A stretch of DNA of 64,000 nucleotides, from positions 96,001 to 160,000 of IMG/VR virus record IMGVR_UViG_3300009082_000016. One strand, written 5' to 3'. The number at the start of each line of letters is the position of its first letter. The stretch's first letter is position 1. Below the pieces are notes generated by a model. The model worked only from the letters and a program-made list of their open reading frames with translations, did not search any database and was not told the origin of the DNA. This DNA comes from a virus. Both the position numbers and the translations under genes were made by a program. Of this stretch, positions 3,698 through 64,000 are shown in pieces.

Positions 3698-4021
3698 CTA
3701 CCGACCCTTCAACTTCGCCGGGATGCCGGGGTTGGGCCGGGGCGCGTCCGAGGGCGACTCGGTGCCGGGCACCGGAACCTGCCCGGGCTCCAGCAGGTCG
3801 GGCGCCACGCGCCGGATGAACTCCGTCTCCAGCTCCTTCGGCAACGTGCCGAACGCGGAGCCGCCGCTCTGCGCCTTCTCGACCCGGCTCTTGGAGATGA
3901 CGATCACCCGCCTGAGCGCCGGCACGAGCCCCAGCGTCGCGATCTGATCGCCCTCCTGGTCGTCCGAGACCGTGGCGTAGAACACTTTCACGTCGAACAG
4001 CTTCCCGAGCTTCATGGCCAT
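3698..4021 (-). CDS. hypothetical protein
   Basis: 107-aa ORF abutting GroES. Confidence 0.6.
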   Translation of the reverse strand: MAMKLGKLFDVKVFYATVSDDQEGDQIATLGLVPALRRVIVISKSRVEKAQSGGSAFGTLPKELETEFIRRVAPDLLEPGQVPVPGTESPSDAPRPNPGIPAKLKGR

Positions 4022-4067
4022 CGTGGGCCTCCTTTCGATCGCCCTCTATCGGGGTCGCATCGAAATG

Positions 4068-4472
4068 TCACTCGTCGTCGTCGGCGCTCGGCCCGAACCC
4101 GTCCTCGTCCACGTCCGTCTCGTCGGGCTCCGGGTCGGCGGGCGCCCCGCCCCGACTGCCAGCCGCCGCCATGGCCCGATCGACGTAGGTCGCCTCGGGC
4201 GGGGAGGCGGGCTCGGGATCGGCGACCGACCCGTCCGGCTCGGGGGCCAGCCCGTCCAGGACGCGGTCGAAACCGGGCGGGACGCCCTGCCCGTCCAGCC
4301 TGGCCGGCTGCTGAAGGACACCGCCGACCGCCGCCCAGACGGCGTCGAACGACTCCTTGGTGAGCTGGGCCTCGATGATGCCCCCGCTGTCCAGCTTCAG
4401 GAAGGCCACGTGGACCACGTTGCCCGTCGCCACGTCCCGGTGAACACCCAGTTCGACGACCTCGAGTCGCAT
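4068..4472 (-). CDS. hypothetical protein, acidic tail
   Basis: Start MRLEVV preceded by GGAGG. Confidence 0.6.
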   Translation of the reverse strand: MRLEVVELGVHRDVATGNVVHVAFLKLDSGGIIEAQLTKESFDAVWAAVGGVLQQPARLDGQGVPPGFDRVLDGLAPEPDGSVADPEPASPPEATYVDRAMAAAGSRGGAPADPEPDETDVDEDGFGPSADDDE

Positions 4473-4474
4473 CC

Positions 4475-4801
4475 CTACCTCCCCGGCCTCGGACGGGCCG
4501 AATCCTCGAACCGCTTCTCCAGCACGATCCGGATCTGCTTCAGTTCGGAGGCGATGACCTGCGCGGCCTGCTCCAGGGGCGTGGCCTCCGGCGTCTCCGG
4601 CTTCGGCAACTCCGGCGTGGCCGTCTCCGTCTCCACGAGCCCGAACGCCTCCTCCAGCTTGGCCATGCACTCCCCGAACGTCTTCAGCGTCTTGCGGACG
4701 TTGTCCCGGGTGTCCGTGCTGAACAAGACCCGCACCTGGGCGTACGAACGTCGCAACTCCTCGAGGGCTTCCTCAGCCTTCGTCGGGTCCTTCACCACCA
4801 T
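4475..4801 (-). CDS. coiled-coil hypothetical protein
   Basis: Start MVVKDPT after GAGGAGG. Confidence 0.55.
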   Translation of the reverse strand: MVVKDPTKAEEALEELRRSYAQVRVLFSTDTRDNVRKTLKTFGECMAKLEEAFGLVETETATPELPKPETPEATPLEQAAQVIASELKQIRIVLEKRFEDSARPRPGR

Positions 4802-5330
4802 CAGCGTCCTCCTCATCCGCCACCGAGCAGCGGGCCACGACGCAGTCGCCAAGTTCCTTCATGACCACGGCGACGCTCTCCACCAGCTCGGGGCTTCCCG
4901 GCTCGACGACCTTGAGCTGGATCAGGCGTTCGGCAAGGCCGACGCCCACGCGCTCGATGAGGTCGTCAAGTTCAATCATCTCGGGGGCGACAGGCTCCTC
5001 ATCTCCCCCCAGGCAGTACTGCAGAACACCAGAGGCCATGCGGCCGACCACGCGGGCGGTCACCATCCGCATCTGCTCTTCCTCGTCCGGGTCCACGATG
5101 CCCCAGCGAGCGAGGAAAAAACCAAGCTCATCCCCCATTTTCACGCTGAAGAACTGCAGGAGGTCCTGGGTGAGCTTGGACACCCTGTCCTCCAGCGTCA
5201 GGCCTTCGGACGCCACTCCCAGCAGCTGGTCCCGGTAGCCCTGCCAGGTGCAGACCTGGCACCGGCAGACCTCCATCCCAACCAGGATGGCACTGGAGAA
5301 GCAGCGGGGGCAGACGTTCGGGATGCTCAG
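4773..5330 (-). CDS. hypothetical protein with N-terminal Zn ribbon (start uncertain)
   Basis: CPRC...CQVC then helical region. Confidence 0.5.
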   Translation of the reverse strand: MSIPNVCPRCFSSAILVGMEVCRCQVCTWQGYRDQLLGVASEGLTLEDRVSKLTQDLLQFFSVKMGDELGFFLARWGIVDPDEEEQMRMVTARVVGRMASGVLQYCLGGDEEPVAPEMIELDDLIERVGVGLAERLIQLKVVEPGSPELVESVAVVMKELGDCVVARCSVADEEDADGGEGPDEG

Positions 5331-5704
5331 GTCGTCCGCTTGGCCAAGGCCTCCGCGTACTGCCGGCTCTGGAAGAGCGACGACCGCACAGGGGCGACCT
5401 TCACCGGCCCCATCTTGTACAGGAGCTCCAGGCGTTCCCGGGTCTTCTCGTCCTTCCGCTTCCGGTCCGACCCCAGCGACGGGTTCCGGGCTTCCATCCA
5501 CTCCTGGAACGTGTTCGCCGCCTGCCGTCCCGTCGAGTCGTAGTGCGACTCCACCCCCACCAACACCTGCAGGAGCTTCGCCTCGTTCCGGGCCTCCTGC
5601 ACCGCGAGAAGAATCCGCCATGCCGCACCATCCCTCAGCGGAGGCAGTCGGGGGGTCCTGTCGAAGAAGAGGTTGGCCAGGACCCACCCGGCCCGCGTCC
5701 GCAT
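5327..5704 (-). CDS. hypothetical; possible +1 frameshift extension of upstream gene
   Basis: Lies in +1 frame directly after CCC-TTT-TGA; no convincing SD. Confidence 0.55.
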   Translation of the reverse strand: MRTRAGWVLANLFFDRTPRLPPLRDGAAWRILLAVQEARNEAKLLQVLVGVESHYDSTGRQAANTFQEWMEARNPSLGSDRKRKDEKTRERLELLYKMGPVKVAPVRSSLFQSRQYAEALAKRTT

Positions 5705-16859: not shown

Positions 16860-17258
16860 CTACTTCTCCGGAAGCTCGAGCCAGCGATGGCAGTGGTTCT
16901 CGACCCAGGTCTCAAACAGGTACCGTTGTGGATCGTCCACCCCGGGCCAGCCCCACGAGGTGATCTCGGCCAGCCGCTTCTCGAGCGACTGGATCTCGTT
17001 CGAGTGCCGGGACATCTCGAGGTGGAAGAACCGGGTCAGCACCTGCCGCTGACCGTTCTCCTGCATTGAGTCCAACCGCTTCAGGTCGTCCACGATGCCC
17101 ACGATGTCCCGCCGATGGGCGCGGATCTGGTGGCGGCACAGCCAGTACTCCAACGCCCGCGGGATCCAATCGGCCATCGTCTGGTCCAGCGGGACACGCC
17201 CGGCAGCCTCACGGACCAGCTCAGCGTAGCGAATCGTCTTCCGTGGCTTCGTGCTCAC
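16860..17258 (-). CDS. hypothetical protein
   Basis: 132-aa ORF. Confidence 0.5.
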   Translation of the reverse strand: MSTKPRKTIRYAELVREAAGRVPLDQTMADWIPRALEYWLCRHQIRAHRRDIVGIVDDLKRLDSMQENGQRQVLTRFFHLEMSRHSNEIQSLEKRLAEITSWGWPGVDDPQRYLFETWVENHCHRWLELPEK

Positions 17259-18124
17259 TTCACCTTCTCCGTTTCCTCCCCCGTCTCCTTTTCCGTCGCC
17301 TTCAACCGCTCGCGGGCCAGCTCGCGCATCCTGTTCGACAGCGCCCCCTGGTCCGGCGTCGACACCTCATAGGGCAGCCAGTCGCGCTCGATGCGCTTGC
17401 GGAACGACGACCACGTCTCCCGCGTGTACCAGTTGCGCCCCAGCGCCCAGATGCCACCCGGCAGCGTGGTCGTCGGCGTGCTGCCCAGATCGAGGCTGCC
17501 GGCGATGCCAAGCACCACATCGATCGACGCGGCACGCATCTTCACCAGCGTGGTGTCGAGGCAGTGGATCTCCGGGTCGTGGGCTTCGCACTGCTCGGGC
17601 GTCGCCCGCACGTAGTACGCCCGGCACGACGTCGGGCGGGCCTCGTAGATCGAGCACTTCCCATCCTGGAGGAACAGGCAGGGCACCCGCCGCTCGTACC
17701 ACTCGGTGTGCGACACCTTCGCCTGCTCGTCGTGCCGTTGCCGGCACTGCTCCAGGAAGTCGCGCTTGAGCAGGTTGTGGTAGTCCAGGTACGCCGTGGC
17801 GATCAGCGCGTCGAGCGGGGAGACCACCACGGGGATGGTGCAGCAGCTGCCCGTGTGGCAGTCCTTGCAGGCCGGCTTGATGCCCTCCTTCTCGGCCGCT
17901 TCGAGAATCTTCGCGACCAGCTCATCGACGCCCTCGAGCATCACGATCGCCATGGACATCATCTTCCGGAAGGTGAGCGGCCCGCTCTTCCGGACTTCCT
18001 GGACCCCCTTCCGGACGGTCTTGTCCATCCGCTCGAGCTCCTCCTTGGCAATCGCGTCGAGAGTTGCTTGCTCCAATCCCATCCCGAAAACCTCCTCTTG
18101 GTCTGCTCCACCCGCGGATACCAT
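17255..18124 (-). CDS. YkgJ-family Cys-cluster protein
   Basis: ACKDCHTGSCC...CLFLQDGKCSIYEARPTSCRAY. Confidence 0.85.
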   Translation of the reverse strand: MVSAGGADQEEVFGMGLEQATLDAIAKEELERMDKTVRKGVQEVRKSGPLTFRKMMSMAIVMLEGVDELVAKILEAAEKEGIKPACKDCHTGSCCTIPVVVSPLDALIATAYLDYHNLLKRDFLEQCRQRHDEQAKVSHTEWYERRVPCLFLQDGKCSIYEARPTSCRAYYVRATPEQCEAHDPEIHCLDTTLVKMRAASIDVVLGIAGSLDLGSTPTTTLPGGIWALGRNWYTRETWSSFRKRIERDWLPYEVSTPDQGALSNRMRELARERLKATEKETGEETEKVK

Positions 18125-18128
18125 GGCT

Positions 18129-18701
18129 CTACCACTTCTTCCGGGGATCGGCCTTGAGGCCCGTCATCCCGAAGATTCCGTGGGCCTGCACCGTTTGCGG
18201 ACACCAGCGGGTACTGCCCGGTGCCCCAATCGAATCGATCTGCTGGGTGTGGAGCACCCAATGCTGTTCCAGACGCTCGGCGGACACCGTAGTTCTGCAT
18301 CGCACACAGCAACACGGCCGCATCAAGGTAACCGGCGTCAACAGCTGATGCAACCCGGCGTTGTAGAACTCCTGACTGGAGTGCCGAAGTTCCTTGTCGA
18401 TCCCGTCCGACAGGCCCTTTCTTGCCGCCGCCAACGACGCCTCCCCGTCGTCTCTCCCCCCCGTGCGAGCTCCGGAAGTCAGCCCACTTCTTCTTGCCGC
18501 CCAGACGGACAGCAGCTGCAGTCTTCCTACCGCTCGACGCGCAACGACGGCATAGCGACCAGCCCTGCTAAACCTGGTCGCCTCGCGACAGCACCACTCC
18601 ACGGCCGACACGGACCCGTAAACCGTTTCCACCATCGTGTCCGCCGACAGCTGCTGGGTCACCTGCACCAGTCCGTCCTCCCTGGCTTCCTCCGGAGTCA
18701 T
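18129..18701 (-). CDS. hypothetical protein
   Basis: 190-aa ORF, atypical codon usage. Confidence 0.4.
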   Translation of the reverse strand: MTPEEAREDGLVQVTQQLSADTMVETVYGSVSAVEWCCREATRFSRAGRYAVVARRAVGRLQLLSVWAARRSGLTSGARTGGRDDGEASLAAARKGLSDGIDKELRHSSQEFYNAGLHQLLTPVTLMRPCCCVRCRTTVSAERLEQHWVLHTQQIDSIGAPGSTRWCPQTVQAHGIFGMTGLKADPRKKW

Positions 18702-18705
18702 GCTC

Positions 18706-19068
18706 TCACCAGGGCTTCCCGGAGCGGCACACCTTCCTTCTATCCCACGGGCGCATGCCGGGCAAGAACTCGGCCCAGGCCACCCGCGGCGGCGCCACGT
18801 GCTTCATGTCGAATGGCGCCTTGCCGATGCGCCGGTCGACCTGCCGCAGGATGCGGGCGATCGTCTCGCGGCTGACGCCCACCATCCGCGCCACCCGACT
18901 CGCCGTCAAGCCGAACATGTAGACGGTGCGGAACACGAACTGCTCCCGCGGCGGCATCGAACAGAGCGCGGCGCAGAGCCCCACCTGGAACTCGAGGGGC
19001 ATGTTCTGGACCCACGGGGCGAGGGAACCACGCCGGCCGCGCTGCTTGGCGCCAAACATGTTCGTCAT
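18706..19068 (-). CDS. sigma-70 region-4-like HTH protein
   Basis: ALCSMPPREQFVF....FGLTASRVARMVGVSRETIARILRQ. Confidence 0.7.
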   Translation of the reverse strand: MTNMFGAKQRGRRGSLAPWVQNMPLEFQVGLCAALCSMPPREQFVFRTVYMFGLTASRVARMVGVSRETIARILRQVDRRIGKAPFDMKHVAPPRVAWAEFLPGMRPWDRRKVCRSGKPW

Positions 19069-19430
19069 CCTCCACCTGCCAGCTTCTTCCCCTCTTCGCA
19101 GTCGCAGAGGATGTCGTTGGAGATGTGCCCCGTGTCGAGGCACTTCTCGCACTCCATGATCAGGAACTCCTTCCGGCCCCTCACGTCGGCGAGGTAGTCG
19201 GTGACCGCGTCCAGGAAGTTGGTCAGCCCCTCCATGCAGTCGTCATCGTCCTTGCTGAACTGGATCAGCTCCGGCCCCGGCGTCCCGTACTCCACGCCCC
19301 GGGCCATCTGGGCGCGGCGGAACCGGCCCGATAGCTCCAGCAGGCAGAGCCGCTGCTTCTTCCAGAGCTCAGGGTCGAGCTTCTTGAGAATGTCCTCGAT
19401 GGTCGCGAATCCAAGATCTCCACAAGCCAT
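19065..19430 (-). CDS. hypothetical protein
   Basis: 121-aa ORF with AAAGGAG SD; C-terminal CxxC..CxC. Confidence 0.6.
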   Translation of the reverse strand: MACGDLGFATIEDILKKLDPELWKKQRLCLLELSGRFRRAQMARGVEYGTPGPELIQFSKDDDDCMEGLTNFLDAVTDYLADVRGRKEFLIMECEKCLDTGHISNDILCDCEEGKKLAGGG

Positions 19431-19448
19431 GTGCTTCTCCTTTCCTAT

Positions 19449-19892
19449 GGTGGCTTCCAGCAGGGACCGGCCGAAGCCGATCCCTGCGACCTGGTGGCGT
19501 CAGTCAGAGGCTAGTCCGATTCCTGTCGCAGCTAGCCGTAACGATCCAGGGCATGCCGGAGTCCCACGTCAGCGGGCCCCTGCTGGAAACCACCTTCTGG
19601 ATCACAGGAGGGACCGGCCGAAGCCGATCCCGCATCCGAGACGCTAACCTTGCTAGCACGGCCACGCCTAAACGTGACTAGTGGAGCCCGTACCAGCCTT
19701 GCCGGAGTCCCACGTCAGCGGGCCCCTCCTGTGATCCAGAACGTCCCCTCCCCGAGGGACCGGCCGAGGTCTAAACCACGGTCGGTCCCGCGGGCTTGCC
19801 GGAACTAGGCGGGCCACACCTGCCCTTGCCTTGTTGAGGCCTTCCCCGAGATGCCGGAGTCCCGCATCAGCGGGCCCCTCGGGGAGGGGACG
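19449..19892 (-). ncRNA. array of three structured RNA units (19449-19594, 19595-19741, 19742-19892), putative guide RNAs for the adjacent RAMP-like protein
   Basis: Each unit has a unit-specific ~14-17 bp closing inverted repeat, conserved GGGGCCCGCTGAYGYGGGACTCC, a 66-73 nt variable pentamer-periodic core and a GGGAYCG...CGGTCCC hairpin (cUUCGg loop in two units); G-U wobbles favour the minus strand. Confidence 0.8.
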
Positions 19893-19897
19893 TCGAT

Positions 19898-20530
19898 CTA
19901 CGCGGCCTCTTCCAGGATCCTGTTGAGCCGGTTCCGGATCCGCGTGAGCGCGGTGCGAAGCACGGGCAGCACCGTTCCCAGGAGCTCGGCCGCCCTGCGG
20001 TTGTTCTCGTACTTGTTGAGCAGGCCCTCGATGTCGTCGATGATCTCCCGGAGAAGGAGGGTGCCGGTGTTCCGCCTGCGGAGCCGTTCCACCGTGTGCT
20101 GGTAGGACTTCTTGCTCGTGGCCGAGGTCCGAACCGACACATTGCCGGTGACGACAATCTGGACCTTCTTGATCTTCACGACCCAGGCATAGCCCCGGGC
20201 CATGAGCCGCGCTTCCTGCTTCCACTGCTTCTCGGCCGCCTCGCTCCGGTTGGCCGTGAAGCCGACGGAGAGGTTCTCCTTCACCCACGCGGGGACGGGC
20301 TCACCATCGAATCGGCCGTCGCGCCAGGCCGCCACGATGTGGTCGGTCTCGACGGATCCGTTCGCCTGGGTGTTCAACCAGTCGATCGCCCTTCCGTAGA
20401 GCATAGCCTGCGCGTCGGTGTACACCGGCGTCCGTGACTGGTAACCGACGAGCGTCGCCCCTTCCGGCAGCTGGCCCGGCTGAACGACGTCCTCCTCGTA
20501 GCTGATGATCTCCTTCTTCTCCTGGGCCAT
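19898..20530 (-). CDS. partner protein of RAMP-like gene
   Basis: 210 aa; TGATG coupling to RAMP gene; AAEKQWKQEARLMAR motif; stop lies 5 nt before RNA array. Confidence 0.7.
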   Translation of the reverse strand: MAQEKKEIISYEEDVVQPGQLPEGATLVGYQSRTPVYTDAQAMLYGRAIDWLNTQANGSVETDHIVAAWRDGRFDGEPVPAWVKENLSVGFTANRSEAAEKQWKQEARLMARGYAWVVKIKKVQIVVTGNVSVRTSATSKKSYQHTVERLRRRNTGTLLLREIIDDIEGLLNKYENNRRAAELLGTVLPVLRTALTRIRNRLNRILEEAA

Positions 20531-21198
20531 CAGCCTTCCTTCACCAGGCGCTTCGCTCCGGCGATCGTGAAAACGCCGTTGGCCTCGTGGCATCCCCGTC
20601 CCGGGCGCCCCTGACCCAACCCGATGAACTGGCCGGCATGCTGCACGATGCTCGCCAGGAGATCGAGGCTGACGACGTCCGGCTTGTGGATGACCGTCAC
20701 CCTCGTGTACCACGGCGGATTGAAGTGTGGACGGTACACGGTGGCGGGGAAGTGGGTGCGCGTCTCCTCCTTCTTGTCCTTGTTCCCACGGAACACGATG
20801 TCCTTGCTGCACATCTCGATGTCCTCACAGATGATCGGGTACACCCCACTCGGCACGCGAAACAGCCGGATGTTCTCGGCCGGAAGGTGGAGGATCTCCG
20901 TCGCCGCCTGGACGAAGCATCCATGGAACGCACCCGAAGGGATCCCGAACGGGTGCTTCTTGTCCCCCGTCAGATGCAGGCAGCCCTTCGCCTCATCCTT
21001 CGGGTCCAGCTTGGCCGGCTTGGGAGGGTAGGGCTCTCCCTTGCCGCGCTCGCTCATCGCACGCATGAAATCGGCCAGGGCTGCCCGCGGCTTCCCCGGA
21101 ATGAAAGGGGCCTCTCCCACGAGATCGAAGGCGGTATACCAGAGCTCGAGGGGCTTCAACTTGATCTCCACCTCTTCGGCCTGCATCTTCTTCGTCAT
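20530..21198 (-). CDS. stand-alone RAMP/Cas7-like RNA-binding protein (Vipr-like)
   Basis: FDLVGEAPFI (beta1), FGIPSGAFHGCFVQAA (cf. IPGSSxKG), YRPHF..W, Gly-rich loop AGQFIGLGQGRPGRG...NGVF. Confidence 0.7.
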   Translation of the reverse strand: MTKKMQAEEVEIKLKPLELWYTAFDLVGEAPFIPGKPRAALADFMRAMSERGKGEPYPPKPAKLDPKDEAKGCLHLTGDKKHPFGIPSGAFHGCFVQAATEILHLPAENIRLFRVPSGVYPIICEDIEMCSKDIVFRGNKDKKEETRTHFPATVYRPHFNPPWYTRVTVIHKPDVVSLDLLASIVQHAGQFIGLGQGRPGRGCHEANGVFTIAGAKRLVKEG

Positions 21199-21206
21199 GT
21201 CCTCTC

Positions 21207-21491
21207 CTAGTCTTCGAGGTTGGCGATCCAGACGAGGCCATCCTCGAAGTGCTGCTCCCTCGCGATGCGGCAGATCTCCTGCCACACATCCTCGGGAATG
21301 CTGTCACGGTCCGACCCCTCTTCGTGGTCGAACGTAATGAACACGTCGCTGTACTCGCCTGGGACTTCGCCCTTCCGGTGCCACGTCGCGATCGGCTTGC
21401 CGGAGTTGAGCCAGTCCATGAAGTCCTTGCGCTGGTACCACTCGGAGGCGTCGATGCGGAGCACCCGCCCGACATACTTGAACACGGCCAT
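21207..21491 (-). CDS. hypothetical protein
   Basis: Start MAVFKY, TGATG coupled. Confidence 0.55.
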   Translation of the reverse strand: MAVFKYVGRVLRIDASEWYQRKDFMDWLNSGKPIATWHRKGEVPGEYSDVFITFDHEEGSDRDSIPEDVWQEICRIAREQHFEDGLVWIANLED

Positions 21492-21708
21492 CAGCGATCC
21501 TTCCCGTAGTACTCGAGGCACTCCTTGCACCGCAGGAACCCGGCATCGTCATCCTCCGGGTCGCCCTCGAGCACCGCGCCTCCCTGATCGATCTGGAAGG
21601 CACCGCAGACCGTGTCCTGGTCGTTGGACCCCTCGAACTCGCAGTCCTTGCCGCCGGCGCCGCAGTGCTTCCCCTCGAACCGGATGGTCCGCTTGGTCTC
21701 AATCTCCA

Positions 21709-62738: not shown

Positions 62739-64000
62739 CTAGAAGCGACCGATCACGGCCTCCAAGGTGGAGCCGGTGGTGGGCGTGAAGTCGAACTTCA
62801 CCGTGTCGGCAGCGTCGTTCATGTAGTACGTGCCCTGTCCACCACCAGTGCTGGCCGTCCGGAGCAGGCGCTGACCGTTGTAGTAGATGGCCAAGGACCC
62901 GCTGAACAGGGAGTCGTAGCCGATCTGGGCCGGAACCACGTCGAGGTCCCACGTCACGGTGGCCGCGGGCCAGCTGGTCACCGACACCTCCTCGAACTTC
63001 GTGATGTTGACGGACCACACCTCGGTGTCCGCCTTGTACGTGTACTGGGCGCCGTTGCCCCAGAACACGTTCACCAGCGTGAGAGCGCCGAAGGACGCGC
63101 TGACGGTGATCTGGTCCCCGTCGTCCGGCTGCTGGAAGCTCCAGTTGGTTCCGTCGTACCACCCGATCTCCTTCGCATGGCCGGAGAAGGTCCCGAGAGC
63201 CGTGGGGGCGATCATGGCCCGGAGACCGGTCGGGGGCTTGCCCGCTCCGGCCGTGCTGTACAGCTTCGTCCACGTTCCGCCCCCGATGGACCGGTACTGG
63301 TAGACGTCCCCGTCGGTGTAGCTGCCACCCCAGTTGTCGACGATGTAGCAGTAGCCGTTGAGGGGGTTCGACGGGACGCTGCCACCCTGATCGGCGTCCG
63401 TGGTCAGCAGAACGATGTGAACCGGCGGGTGCCACGGGAACGTCTCGTCGACGTTCACGCCGGCGGCGTTCACCTTGATGTAGTTGCCCGGCTTGACCTC
63501 CAGCGACGTACCGTCGATGGTGAGGCCGTCGGCGTACTTCACGTACACGCCGTTCGAGTCGATCTCGAGGCCGCCCTCGTTCTTCACGAGGACCTTGAGT
63601 CCGGCGTACGCCCCGGACACCTCGGCGATCTCCAAGCCACCATCGGTCTGCAGGAGGGGGGAGGCGGTCCACGTCGCGCCGGCGTAGACGTACTCGATCC
63701 CCGTACCGTACGAGGACGAGATGATGACCCCATCGCCCGACGACGGCACGACCGCGATCCAGTAGCTCGGGTCGTTGGTGTTGCTCGTGGTGACGGTCAT
63801 GATCTGCTTCTGGTACGGAGCGAACTCGTCGGCGGCGTTCGGGTGGACCACGAAACGGGTCCCATAGGCCGCGTAGCCACCGCTGCCCGGCACCAGCACG
63901 GACCAAGTGGTCCCCGTCCAGATGACGAAGTCCCCGGCGTTGACCGCCACACCGCCCCACGTACCGTTGGCCGTGGCGAGGTAGGTGACTCCCGTCACGG
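62739..64000 (-). CDS. putative fibre/head-decoration protein, DUF2793-like repeats (5'-truncated)
   Basis: TFSGHAKEIGWYDGTNWSF..P..G and GDFVIWTGTTW motifs; runs off window edge. Confidence 0.6.
   Translation of the reverse strand, partial: VTGVTYLATANGTWGGVAVNAGDFVIWTGTTWSVLVPGSGGYAAYGTRFVVHPNAADEFAPYQKQIMTVTTSNTNDPSYWIAVVPSSGDGVIISSSYGTGIEYVYAGATWTASPLLQTDGGLEIAEVSGAYAGLKVLVKNEGGLEIDSNGVYVKYADGLTIDGTSLEVKPGNYIKVNAAGVNVDETFPWHPPVHIVLLTTDADQGGSVPSNPLNGYCYIVDNWGGSYTDGDVYQYRSIGGGTWTKLYSTAGAGKPPTGLRAMIAPTALGTFSGHAKEIGWYDGTNWSFQQPDDGDQITVSASFGALTLVNVFWGNGAQYTYKADTEVWSVNITKFEEVSVTSWPAATVTWDLDVVPAQIGYDSLFSGSLAIYYNGQRLLRTASTGGGQGTYYMNDAADTVKFDFTPTTGSTLEAVIGRF

What the first reader, a model, noticed from the sequence alone, without database searches (positions are those of the whole stretch)
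19485..19855. In-phase 5-nt G-N-Y-N-N periodicity in the variable cores
Minus strand, read from the conserved ACTCC. Unit 1: GGCAT GCCCT GGATC GTTAC GGCTA GCTGC GACAG GAATC GGACT AGCCT CTGAC TGACG. Unit 2: GGCAA GGCTG GTACG GGCTC CACTA GTCAC GTTTA GGCGT GGCCG TGCTA GCAAG GTTAG. Unit 3: GGCAT CTCGG GGAAG GCCTC AACAA GGCAA GGGCA GGTGT GGCCC GCCTA GTTCC GGCAA. Across these 36 pentamers, 29 start with G and 27 have a pyrimidine at position 3, while positions 4-5 vary freely. Inference: one protein subunit binds per pentamer, and the NN positions spell a non-contiguous target code.
Basis: partly seen in the sequence, partly recalled or inferred. Interest (0 to 1): 0.85.

Follow-up and report, generated by a model that had tools for sequence, protein, structure and literature searches.

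The report
VIPR guide-RNA array in a phage
The 5-base rhythm is real: it marks three guide RNAs of a VIPR system, a CRISPR-related, phage-borne DNA-silencing system first described in 2026 preprints, so this is a new example of a known kind with an unusual RNA scaffold.

Summary
Observation confirmed. On the minus strand, the three 60-nt cores read in phase from ACTCC give G at pentamer position 1 in 29/36, G at position 2 in 19/36 and a pyrimidine at position 3 in 27/36. Positions 4-5 are near maximal entropy. No dinucleotide-preserving shuffle (0/5000) reaches the period-5 value, and the three cores are the three strongest period-5 signals in the 172.7-kb genome.

The gene two genes upstream (P0001, 222 aa) folds as a Cas7-like RAMP. 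Its family profile matches the solved SUSP1 Vipr protein (PDB 36pp, E 4e-16). Distant relatives of P0001 sit next to clean GGY-NN arrays. Published VIPR work shows one Vipr protomer per GGYNN pentamer, with the NN dinucleotides reading DNA with one skipped base (NN-x-NN).

The locus is vipr, a coupled orphan gene in the vap position, and three vrRNAs. Features not named in the paper's text are:
- ~147-nt cassettes closed by unit-specific stems
- a conserved 5' hairpin and a 3' hairpin tail
- a relaxed G-(G)-Y motif

I found no natural target and no self-target. This scan has already flagged VIPR loci in at least 171 other genomes.

The parts
20530..21198 (-). vipr gene (P0001, 222 aa): a minimal Cas7-like RAMP with a single RRM core, a thumb hairpin (about residues 127-159) and a glycine-rich loop (about 189-203)
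   Evidence: AF2 model with pLDDT 91.8. Foldseek top hits are Csm3/Cmr4/type VII Cas7, E 4e-6. The 54-member family profile matches PDB 36pp_D 'SUSP1 Vipr protein' at E 4.4e-16 over nearly the full length. phrog_4652 matches at E 4e-6.
19898..20530 (-). Gene in the vap (vipr-accessory) position (P0002, 210 aa). It is translationally coupled to vipr through a TGATG overlap and has a helical C-terminus.
   Evidence: Reading frames and overlap. No Pfam, PHROG, PADLOC or NCBIfam family and no homologue. The AF2 model is unusable, pLDDT 47.
Parts: 15-bp closing stem; 5' hairpin 19856-19878; 13 pentamers 19855-19791; 3' hairpin tail 19756-19789.
19596..19741 (-). vrRNA-2 cassette (unit 2). Parts: 14-bp closing stem; 5' hairpin 19704-19726; 12 pentamers 19703-19644; 3' UUCG hairpin 19610-19631.
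   Evidence: The minus-strand RNA folds 20 kcal/mol better than the plus strand and uses 9 G-U pairs.
19449..19594 (-). vrRNA-3 cassette (unit 1). Parts: 11-13-bp closing stem; 5' hairpin 19558-19580; 9 clean plus 3 degenerate pentamers 19557-19498; 3' UUCG hairpin 19463-19484.

Best explanation
The three periodic cores are the guide tracts of three vrRNAs of a phage-encoded VIPR (Viral Interference Programmable Repeat) system. The operon on the minus strand is vipr (20530-21198), a coupled accessory gene (19898-20530) and three ~147-nt RNA cassettes (19449-19893).

By homology with the SUSP1 and P. fulva systems, Vipr protomers polymerise along each tract, one per pentamer. They hold G1, G2 and Y3 in protein pockets and present N4N5. 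The 9-13 NN dinucleotides then pair with a DNA strand in which every third base is skipped (NN-x-NN-x). This forms a gapped R-loop that blocks transcription of a competing phage, satellite or prophage.

Shown here:
- the periodicity
- the RAMP fold and Vipr homology
- the co-occurrence of pentamer arrays with relatives of this protein
- the strong, strand-specific RNA scaffold

Inferred:
- expression and processing of the RNAs
- filament assembly
- the skip rule in this divergent member
- the biological target

The release of cassettes by a double-strand-specific RNase at the long closing helices is my own inference.
For: - Periodicity: significance and genome-wide rank are.
- Protein: P0001 gives a confident RAMP model whose nearest solved folds are Csm3/Cmr4/Cas7. 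The profile of its 54 HMMER relatives hits the SUSP1 Vipr chain of PDB 36pp at E 4.4e-16.
- Independent association: relatives found by protein sequence alone sit beside clean GGY-NN arrays on the gene-sense strand. These are cyanophage Cy-LDV1 g34 (L006, arrays at about 4708-4810 and 5431-5550) and P0004 (L007, array from 1809 to the contig end). A weaker period-5 signal lies just upstream of P0005 (L008, about 2295).
- RNA: the 471-nt region folds at -272.5 kcal/mol, z = -8.5. Closing stems differ in sequence between units but stay complementary. Units 1 and 2 fold much better as minus-strand RNA.
- Locus layout matches the published one: vipr, then vap, then a downstream array, in a virus genome.
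- No self-target reaches 80% NN match (best 18/26), as the paper reports for other systems.
- Published mechanism.
Against: - No natural target was found. Exact 16-20-base NN-x-NN seeds gave only chance-level hits in IMG/VR, JGI metagenomes and GTDB genomes.
- The motif is looser than published GGY: G2 is only 53%, and 7 of 36 pentamers lack G1.
- P0001 alone does not hit the Vipr chain by phmmer.
- Its G-loop reads Q-G-R where SUSP1 has the D177-W178-R179 residues that contact G1, G2 and Y3.
- The free cores are predicted to pair internally, which a filament would have to melt.
- The accessory gene could not be tied to any of vap1-6.
Confidence: 0.88

Rival explanations
1. It is a decaying or repurposed VIPR locus. 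The cassettes are relics or decoys that bind Vipr (their own or a rival's) but no longer guide it to any target.
For: The GGY is degenerate, with 7/36 pentamers lacking G1 and G2 at 53%. Unit 1 loses the pattern after 9 repeats. No target was found. Decoy and solo vrRNAs are described in print.
Against: vipr and its partner are intact and translationally coupled. The scaffold is strongly conserved with compensatory changes. The paper notes frequent internal degeneracy in working vrRNAs. My target search was limited to exact seeds.
Confidence: 0.08
2. The RNAs act as a sponge or regulator for a different oligomeric RNA-binding protein. The model is TRAP, in which each subunit of a ring reads one triplet spaced by 2-3 nt, and no DNA is guided.
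For: Periodic triplets with 2-nt spacers, about 12 per unit, resemble a TRAP-type site. This was my first guess.
Against: No TRAP-like or other ring RNA-binder was found next to the array. The adjacent gene is instead a Vipr homologue. The triplet is GGY, the motif Vipr is known to read.
Confidence: 0.02
3. The periodicity is a by-product of RNA or DNA structure. GNC is self-complementary, so G-C pairs every 5 bp in hairpins of a G+C-rich genome could produce it, with no protein code.
For: The cores are predicted to form internal hairpins, and G1 can pair with Y3 of the opposite arm.
Against: The predicted core hairpins differ between units and are not conserved, while the phase relative to ACTCC is identical in all three. 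No other structured or G+C-rich stretch of the genome reaches this signal. Relatives' arrays show the same motif without such hairpins.
Confidence: 0.02

Closest known systems
Type II VIPR systems of Escherichia phage SUSP1 and the Pseudomonas fulva prophage (Vipr + vap1 + vrRNAs; bioRxiv 10.64898/2026.04.26.720920, .720927 and 10.64898/2026.10.15.759431; PDB 36pp)
   Same: A small single-RRM RAMP protein. Guide RNAs of 9-16 GGY/NN pentamers on the gene-sense strand. An array of three vrRNAs downstream of vipr-vap. A conserved structured 3' end after the repeat tract. Virus-encoded, with no self-targeting.
   Different: The cassettes are about 147 nt rather than about 100 nt, each clamped by its own 11-15-bp closing stem. 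A conserved 5' hairpin directly abuts the first pentamer. The 3' tail is a simple hairpin (UUCG loop in two units) rather than the SUSP1 pseudoknot. G2 is relaxed. The G-loop reads QGR instead of DWR. The accessory protein has no detectable relatives. The virus is a 173-kb, 65.6% G+C genome of unknown host. Which of the seven VIPR types it belongs to could not be determined, because the type tables and figures are not held.
Hammerhead-interspersed and staggered vrRNA arrays (VIPR types I and V and others, same paper)
   Same: Several vrRNAs in tandem that must be separated from one transcript.
   Different: No hammerhead is present. Rfam finds none at E up to 10. The CUGAYG[U/C] in the 5' hairpin lacks the A9 of the CUGANGA core. 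The units do not overlap. Instead they are bracketed by long helices.
Class 1 CRISPR backbone subunits (Cas7: Csm3, Cmr4, type VII Cas7)
   Same: The same fold and the same use of a thumb to interrupt the guide periodically (paper).
   Different: CRISPR uses a 6-nt period with one flipped base and a contiguous guide; here the period is 5 nt with three sequestered bases and a gapped code. There is no CRISPR repeat-spacer array and there are no other cas genes.
TRAP bound to the trp leader RNA of Bacillus (11 (G/U)AG triplets with 2-3-nt spacers; own knowledge)
   Same: One protein subunit reads one triplet of a periodic RNA.
   Different: TRAP is a ring protein of unrelated fold with no guide function, its spacers carry no code, and no such gene is present here.

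Membership tests
VIPR system | Vipr protein: a minimal RAMP (one RRM core, G-loop, thumb) homologous to the characterised Vipr | tested here: met
   AF2 pLDDT 91.8. Foldseek hits Csm3/Cmr4/Cas7 at E 4e-6. The family profile matches PDB 36pp_D SUSP1 Vipr at E 4.4e-16, positions 22-202 against 2-190. The single sequence alone gives no hit.
VIPR system | vrRNA tract of tandem GGY/NN (YNNGG) pentamers, at least 4 and typically 9-16, in intergenic DNA beside vipr on the gene-sense strand | tested here: met
   There are 9-13 pentamers per unit in three units: G1 81%, G2 53%, Y3 75%. 0/5000 shuffles reach this. The consensus is looser than GGY. The paper lists related consensus variants.
VIPR system | NN positions hypervariable | tested here: met
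   Entropy is 1.90 and 1.99 bits at positions 4 and 5. However, guides 1 and 2 share 14/24 NN letters in register, p about 0.001.
VIPR system | Conserved structured 3' tail after the repeat tract (a pseudoknot in the SUSP1 clade) | tested here: inconclusive
   A conserved 3' hairpin with an invariant 3' arm (CGGCCGGUCCC) and a covarying 5' arm is present in all three units. A pseudoknot was neither found nor excluded.
VIPR system | Adjacent vap accessory gene (vap1-6) | tested here: inconclusive
   A coupled 210-aa gene sits in the vap position. It has no family, no homologue and no usable model. The vap sequences are not on hand for comparison.
VIPR system | Relatives of the protein are also flanked by pentamer arrays | tested here: met
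   L006 (Cy-LDV1) and L007 carry clean GGY-NN arrays, and L008 carries a weaker period-5 signal just upstream. Each has its strongest period-5 G signal in the gap next to the vipr homologue, on its strand.
VIPR system | Guides match natural targets by the 1-nt-skip rule, with no self-targeting | tested here: inconclusive
   No self-site reaches 80% (best 18/26). No external target was found. Exact seeds of 16-20 specified bases gave only chance-level hits that did not extend.
VIPR system | vrRNAs are expressed, processed and co-purify with Vipr | not testable with these tools
No promoter- or terminator-like site was seen in 18900-21700, which fits co-transcription with the operon.
Hammerhead-interspersed VIPR array | Hammerhead ribozyme core (CUGANGA ... 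GAAA ... UH) between vrRNAs | tested here: not met
   No Rfam hammerhead at E up to 10 in 18500-21000. The CUGA-containing loop lacks A9.
CRISPR-Cas class 1 | Repeat-spacer array, 6-nt guide periodicity, several cas genes | tested here: not met
   The period is 5, not 6. No tandem or CRISPR-type repeats were found. The neighbours have no cas families.

The most novel reading that the evidence does not exclude
This locus may represent a VIPR architecture not among those named in print. Each guide would be a closed cassette whose repeat tract is a loop held between a 5' hairpin handle and a 3' hairpin tail. Each cassette is clamped by a unit-specific stem and can switch to a nearly isoenergetic 26-33-bp helix (0.6-2.7 kcal/mol apart). 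The array would then be cut by a host double-strand RNase instead of hammerheads or overlapping ends. This would come together with a relaxed G-(G)-Y motif, a QGR G-loop and an accessory protein with no relatives.
Probability: 0.3. Interest if true: 0.5.

Novelty: new member of a known kind. Interest (0 to 1): 0.32.

Why it matters
That idea is already in print (April to October 2026 preprints), and this scan has flagged it in many genomes, so the class is not new.

What this locus adds:
- a divergent member in a very poorly annotated 173-kb high-G+C phage
- a different way of packaging and probably processing the guides
- a looser protein-binding motif
- an unknown accessory protein

These are useful for mapping how far the VIPR code and its RNA scaffolds can vary, and for engineering compact programmable repressors. 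If its targets can be found, they would show which rival this phage fights.

Tried and rejected
1. TRAP-like ring-protein sponge. This was my first guess. I dropped it once the neighbouring gene proved to be a Vipr homologue.
2. Known RNA families and tRNAs. Rfam gave none except a sub-threshold isrB hit elsewhere, and there are no tRNAs.
3. Hammerhead processing. This was rejected (and the core motif read by eye).
4. Similar DNA elsewhere. There was no blastn match in phage records and no exact handle motif in IMG/VR. The handle motifs occur only three times in the phage's own genome.
5. Natural targets under the 1-nt-skip rule.
   - Twelve collection scans with 16-20 specified bases were run: IMG/VR, metagenomes and GTDB genomes.
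   - All hits were at chance numbers, came from genomes with unrelated G+C content, and did not extend into the remaining NN positions. The best were 20/24, 21/24 and 20/26.
   - The eight metagenome hits for guide 3 lie in unrelated proteins.
6. Loss of SUSP1 W178 (Gly in P0001) as the cause of the relaxed G2. This was rejected, because P0004 has E-N-R at that site yet sits beside a clean GGY array.
7. The search for related loci with the family alignments failed because they lack a conserved stretch. Relatives cannot be drawn for a virus record.
8. P0002. No family, no homologue, the Atlas neighbours were meaningless, and the AF2 model had pLDDT 47, so no fold search was run.
9. Host assignment. 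Seven large ORFs have no Pfam family, and tblastn gave only a weak tail-fibre hit, so the host stays unknown.
10. Expression data.

Full report
**The observation.** On the minus strand, the region 19449-19893 holds three tandem units of 146-153 nt.

| Pentamer position | Composition over 36 pentamers | Entropy (bits) |
|---|---|---|
| 1 | G 29 | 1.01 |
| 2 | G 19 | 1.72 |
| 3 | C 21 + T 6 (G only 2) | 1.58 |
| 4 | near uniform | 1.90 |
| 5 | near uniform | 1.99 |

(Counts and entropies.)

- With the phase shared between units, none of 5000 dinucleotide-preserving shuffles reaches the observed period-5 G fraction.
- Only 6 of 5000 shuffles reach it at any period from 4 to 12.
- Each unit separately has its spectral maximum at period 5.
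- In sliding scans the three cores are the top three period-5 signals of the window and of the whole 172,723-bp virus genome.

So the periodicity is real. The only corrections are these:
- Position 2 is also G-biased, so the motif is a relaxed GGY.
- Unit 1 has nine clean repeats followed by three degenerate ones.
- Unit 3 runs to a thirteenth pentamer.

**What surrounds it.** The region is non-coding. It lies between the stop codon of a 210-aa gene and the ribosome-binding site of a 121-aa gene, all on the minus strand.

As RNA it folds at -272.5 kcal/mol, 8.5 standard deviations below shuffles. Each unit has four parts:
- a closing stem whose sequence is unique to the unit but stays complementary
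- a conserved 5' hairpin that ends in ACUCC directly before the first pentamer
- the periodic tract
- a 3' hairpin with an invariant 3' arm

Units 1 and 2 fold 11 and 20 kcal/mol better as minus-strand than as plus-strand RNA and use 5 and 9 G-U pairs. Rfam and ARAGORN recognise nothing in the array.

**The protein.** Upstream lie two translationally coupled genes, joined by a TGATG overlap: P0001 (222 aa, 20530-21198) and P0002 (210 aa, 19898-20530).

- P0001 has no Pfam, NCBIfam or PADLOC family and only phrog_4652, of unknown function.
- An exhaustive HMMER search found 54 distant relatives of about 200 aa.
- The profile of their alignment matches one solved structure, PDB 36pp chain D, 'SUSP1 Vipr protein', at E 4.4e-16 over nearly the full length.
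- The AlphaFold model built on that alignment is confident, with pLDDT 91.8.
- Its nearest solved folds are the Cas7-type backbone subunits Csm3, Cmr4 and type VII Cas7.

**The literature.** A search for 'Vipr' led to three 2026 preprints.

- The discovery paper (10.64898/2026.04.26.720920) describes Viral Interference Programmable Repeat systems.
  - They consist of a minimal RAMP protein (Vipr), an accessory gene (vap), and vrRNAs made of 9-16 YNNGG (that is, GGY/NN) repeats followed by a conserved tail.
  - They are mostly encoded by phages.
  - The NN dinucleotides specify double-stranded DNA targets in which one base is skipped between dinucleotides.
- The structural paper (10.64898/2026.04.26.720927) shows one protomer per repeat. 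G1, G2 and Y3 are held by the protein, and N4N5 pair with the target in a gapped R-loop.
- The third paper shows that VIPR decides competition between phage SUSP1 and a satellite.

**An independent test here.** Relatives of P0001 were found by protein sequence alone, and I scanned their loci for period-5 signals. In each case the strongest signal lies in the intergenic gap beside the vipr homologue, on its strand. In the first two it reads as clean GGY-NN runs:
- cyanophage Cy-LDV1 g34, with two arrays
- a metagenome contig carrying P0004, with more than 30 pentamers
- the contigs carrying P0005, with a weaker signal just upstream of the gene

 This ties the protein family to the RNA motif without relying on the paper.

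**How this member differs.** The paper's text names four array layouts: type II arrays of about 100-nt vrRNAs with a 3' pseudoknot tail, staggered overlapping arrays, hammerhead-interspersed arrays, and single vrRNAs. This locus differs as follows:

- Each guide is a cassette of about 147 nt, closed by its own stem and carrying a 5' hairpin handle as well as a 3' hairpin.
- No hammerhead is present.
- The conserved 5' and 3' segments are complementary to each other. Each cassette can therefore adopt either two local hairpins plus an 11-15-bp stem, or one extended helix of about 26-33 bp. The two forms differ by only 0.6-2.7 kcal/mol. I infer, without a test, that the long helices are cutting sites for a double-strand-specific RNase.
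- The G-loop of P0001 reads Q-G-R where SUSP1 has D177-W178-R179. This does not by itself explain the relaxed G2, because P0004 has E-N-R and a clean GGY array.
- P0002 has no relatives and no usable model, so it cannot be assigned to vap1-6.
- The VIPR type could not be assigned, because the paper's tables and figures are not held.

**Targets.** Under the one-base-skip rule the phage's own genome has no site with an NN match of 80% or more. The best is 18/26, which is what chance gives over 345,000 positions.

Exact seeds of 16-20 specified bases from all three guides were scanned against IMG/VR, JGI metagenomes and GTDB genomes.
- They returned either nothing or chance numbers of hits.
- The hits came from genomes with unrelated G+C content.
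- They did not extend into the remaining NN positions.
- The hits examined (the eight metagenome hits for guide 3) fell in unrelated proteins.

Guides 1 and 2 share 14 of 24 NN letters in register, p about 0.001. They are therefore either recent duplicates or aimed at variants of one site. The target and the host remain unknown. The phage is very poorly annotated.

**Verdict.**
- The locus is a new, divergent member of a kind described in 2026 preprints. This scan has already noted that kind in at least 171 other genomes.
- Its scaffold and accessory gene may define a further variant, but that needs the published type data and RNA-end mapping.

Noticed in passing
L006 (BK059895.1, Cyanophage Cy-LDV1) 3977-4603, 4708-4810, 5431-5550: Gene g34, annotated as hypothetical, is a Vipr homologue (tblastn E 1e-4, 85% coverage). 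It is followed by two intergenic arrays of clean GGCNN pentamers with 1-nt register shifts. This looks like an unannotated VIPR system in a published cyanophage genome.
   Followed up: partly
L007 (GCA_004196255.1, SDBU01148336.1) 1205-1795 and 1809-1993: The Vipr homologue P0004 is followed directly by more than 30 GGY-NN pentamers in three register blocks that run to the contig end.
   Followed up: partly
window 19796-19855 and 19644-19703: The guides of vrRNA-1 and vrRNA-2 share 14 of 24 NN letters in register (p about 0.001), while vrRNA-3 is unrelated. They are either duplicated guides or guides against two variants of one site.
   Followed up: partly
window 19449-19893: Each cassette has two nearly isoenergetic folds, 0.6-2.7 kcal/mol apart. 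One has local 5' and 3' hairpins. The other has an extended 26-33-bp helix formed by pairing the conserved GGGGCCCGCUGA with UCGGCCGGUCCC.
   Followed up: partly
window 18706-19430 and 17255-18124, minus strand: Directly downstream of the array lie three genes: a 121-aa protein with a Cys-rich C-terminus (19065-19430), an ORF with a sigma-70 region 4-type helix-turn-helix (within 18706-19152, Pfam E 3e-7), and a CxxCxxCC-domain protein. Whether any of them belongs to the VIPR operon is unknown.
   Followed up: no
window 4014-61828 (seven ORFs of 509-1243 aa): None of the seven largest ORFs tested has a Pfam family at E up to 1e-4. tblastn against 50,697 phage records gave only one weak tail-fibre hit. 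The phage is very distant from anything annotated.
   Followed up: partly
window 63223-63300: This is the next-strongest period-5 signal in the window (power 9.8-10.8 against 10.7-12.6 for the cores). It shows no recognisable GGY-NN pattern when printed and is probably chance.
   Followed up: partly
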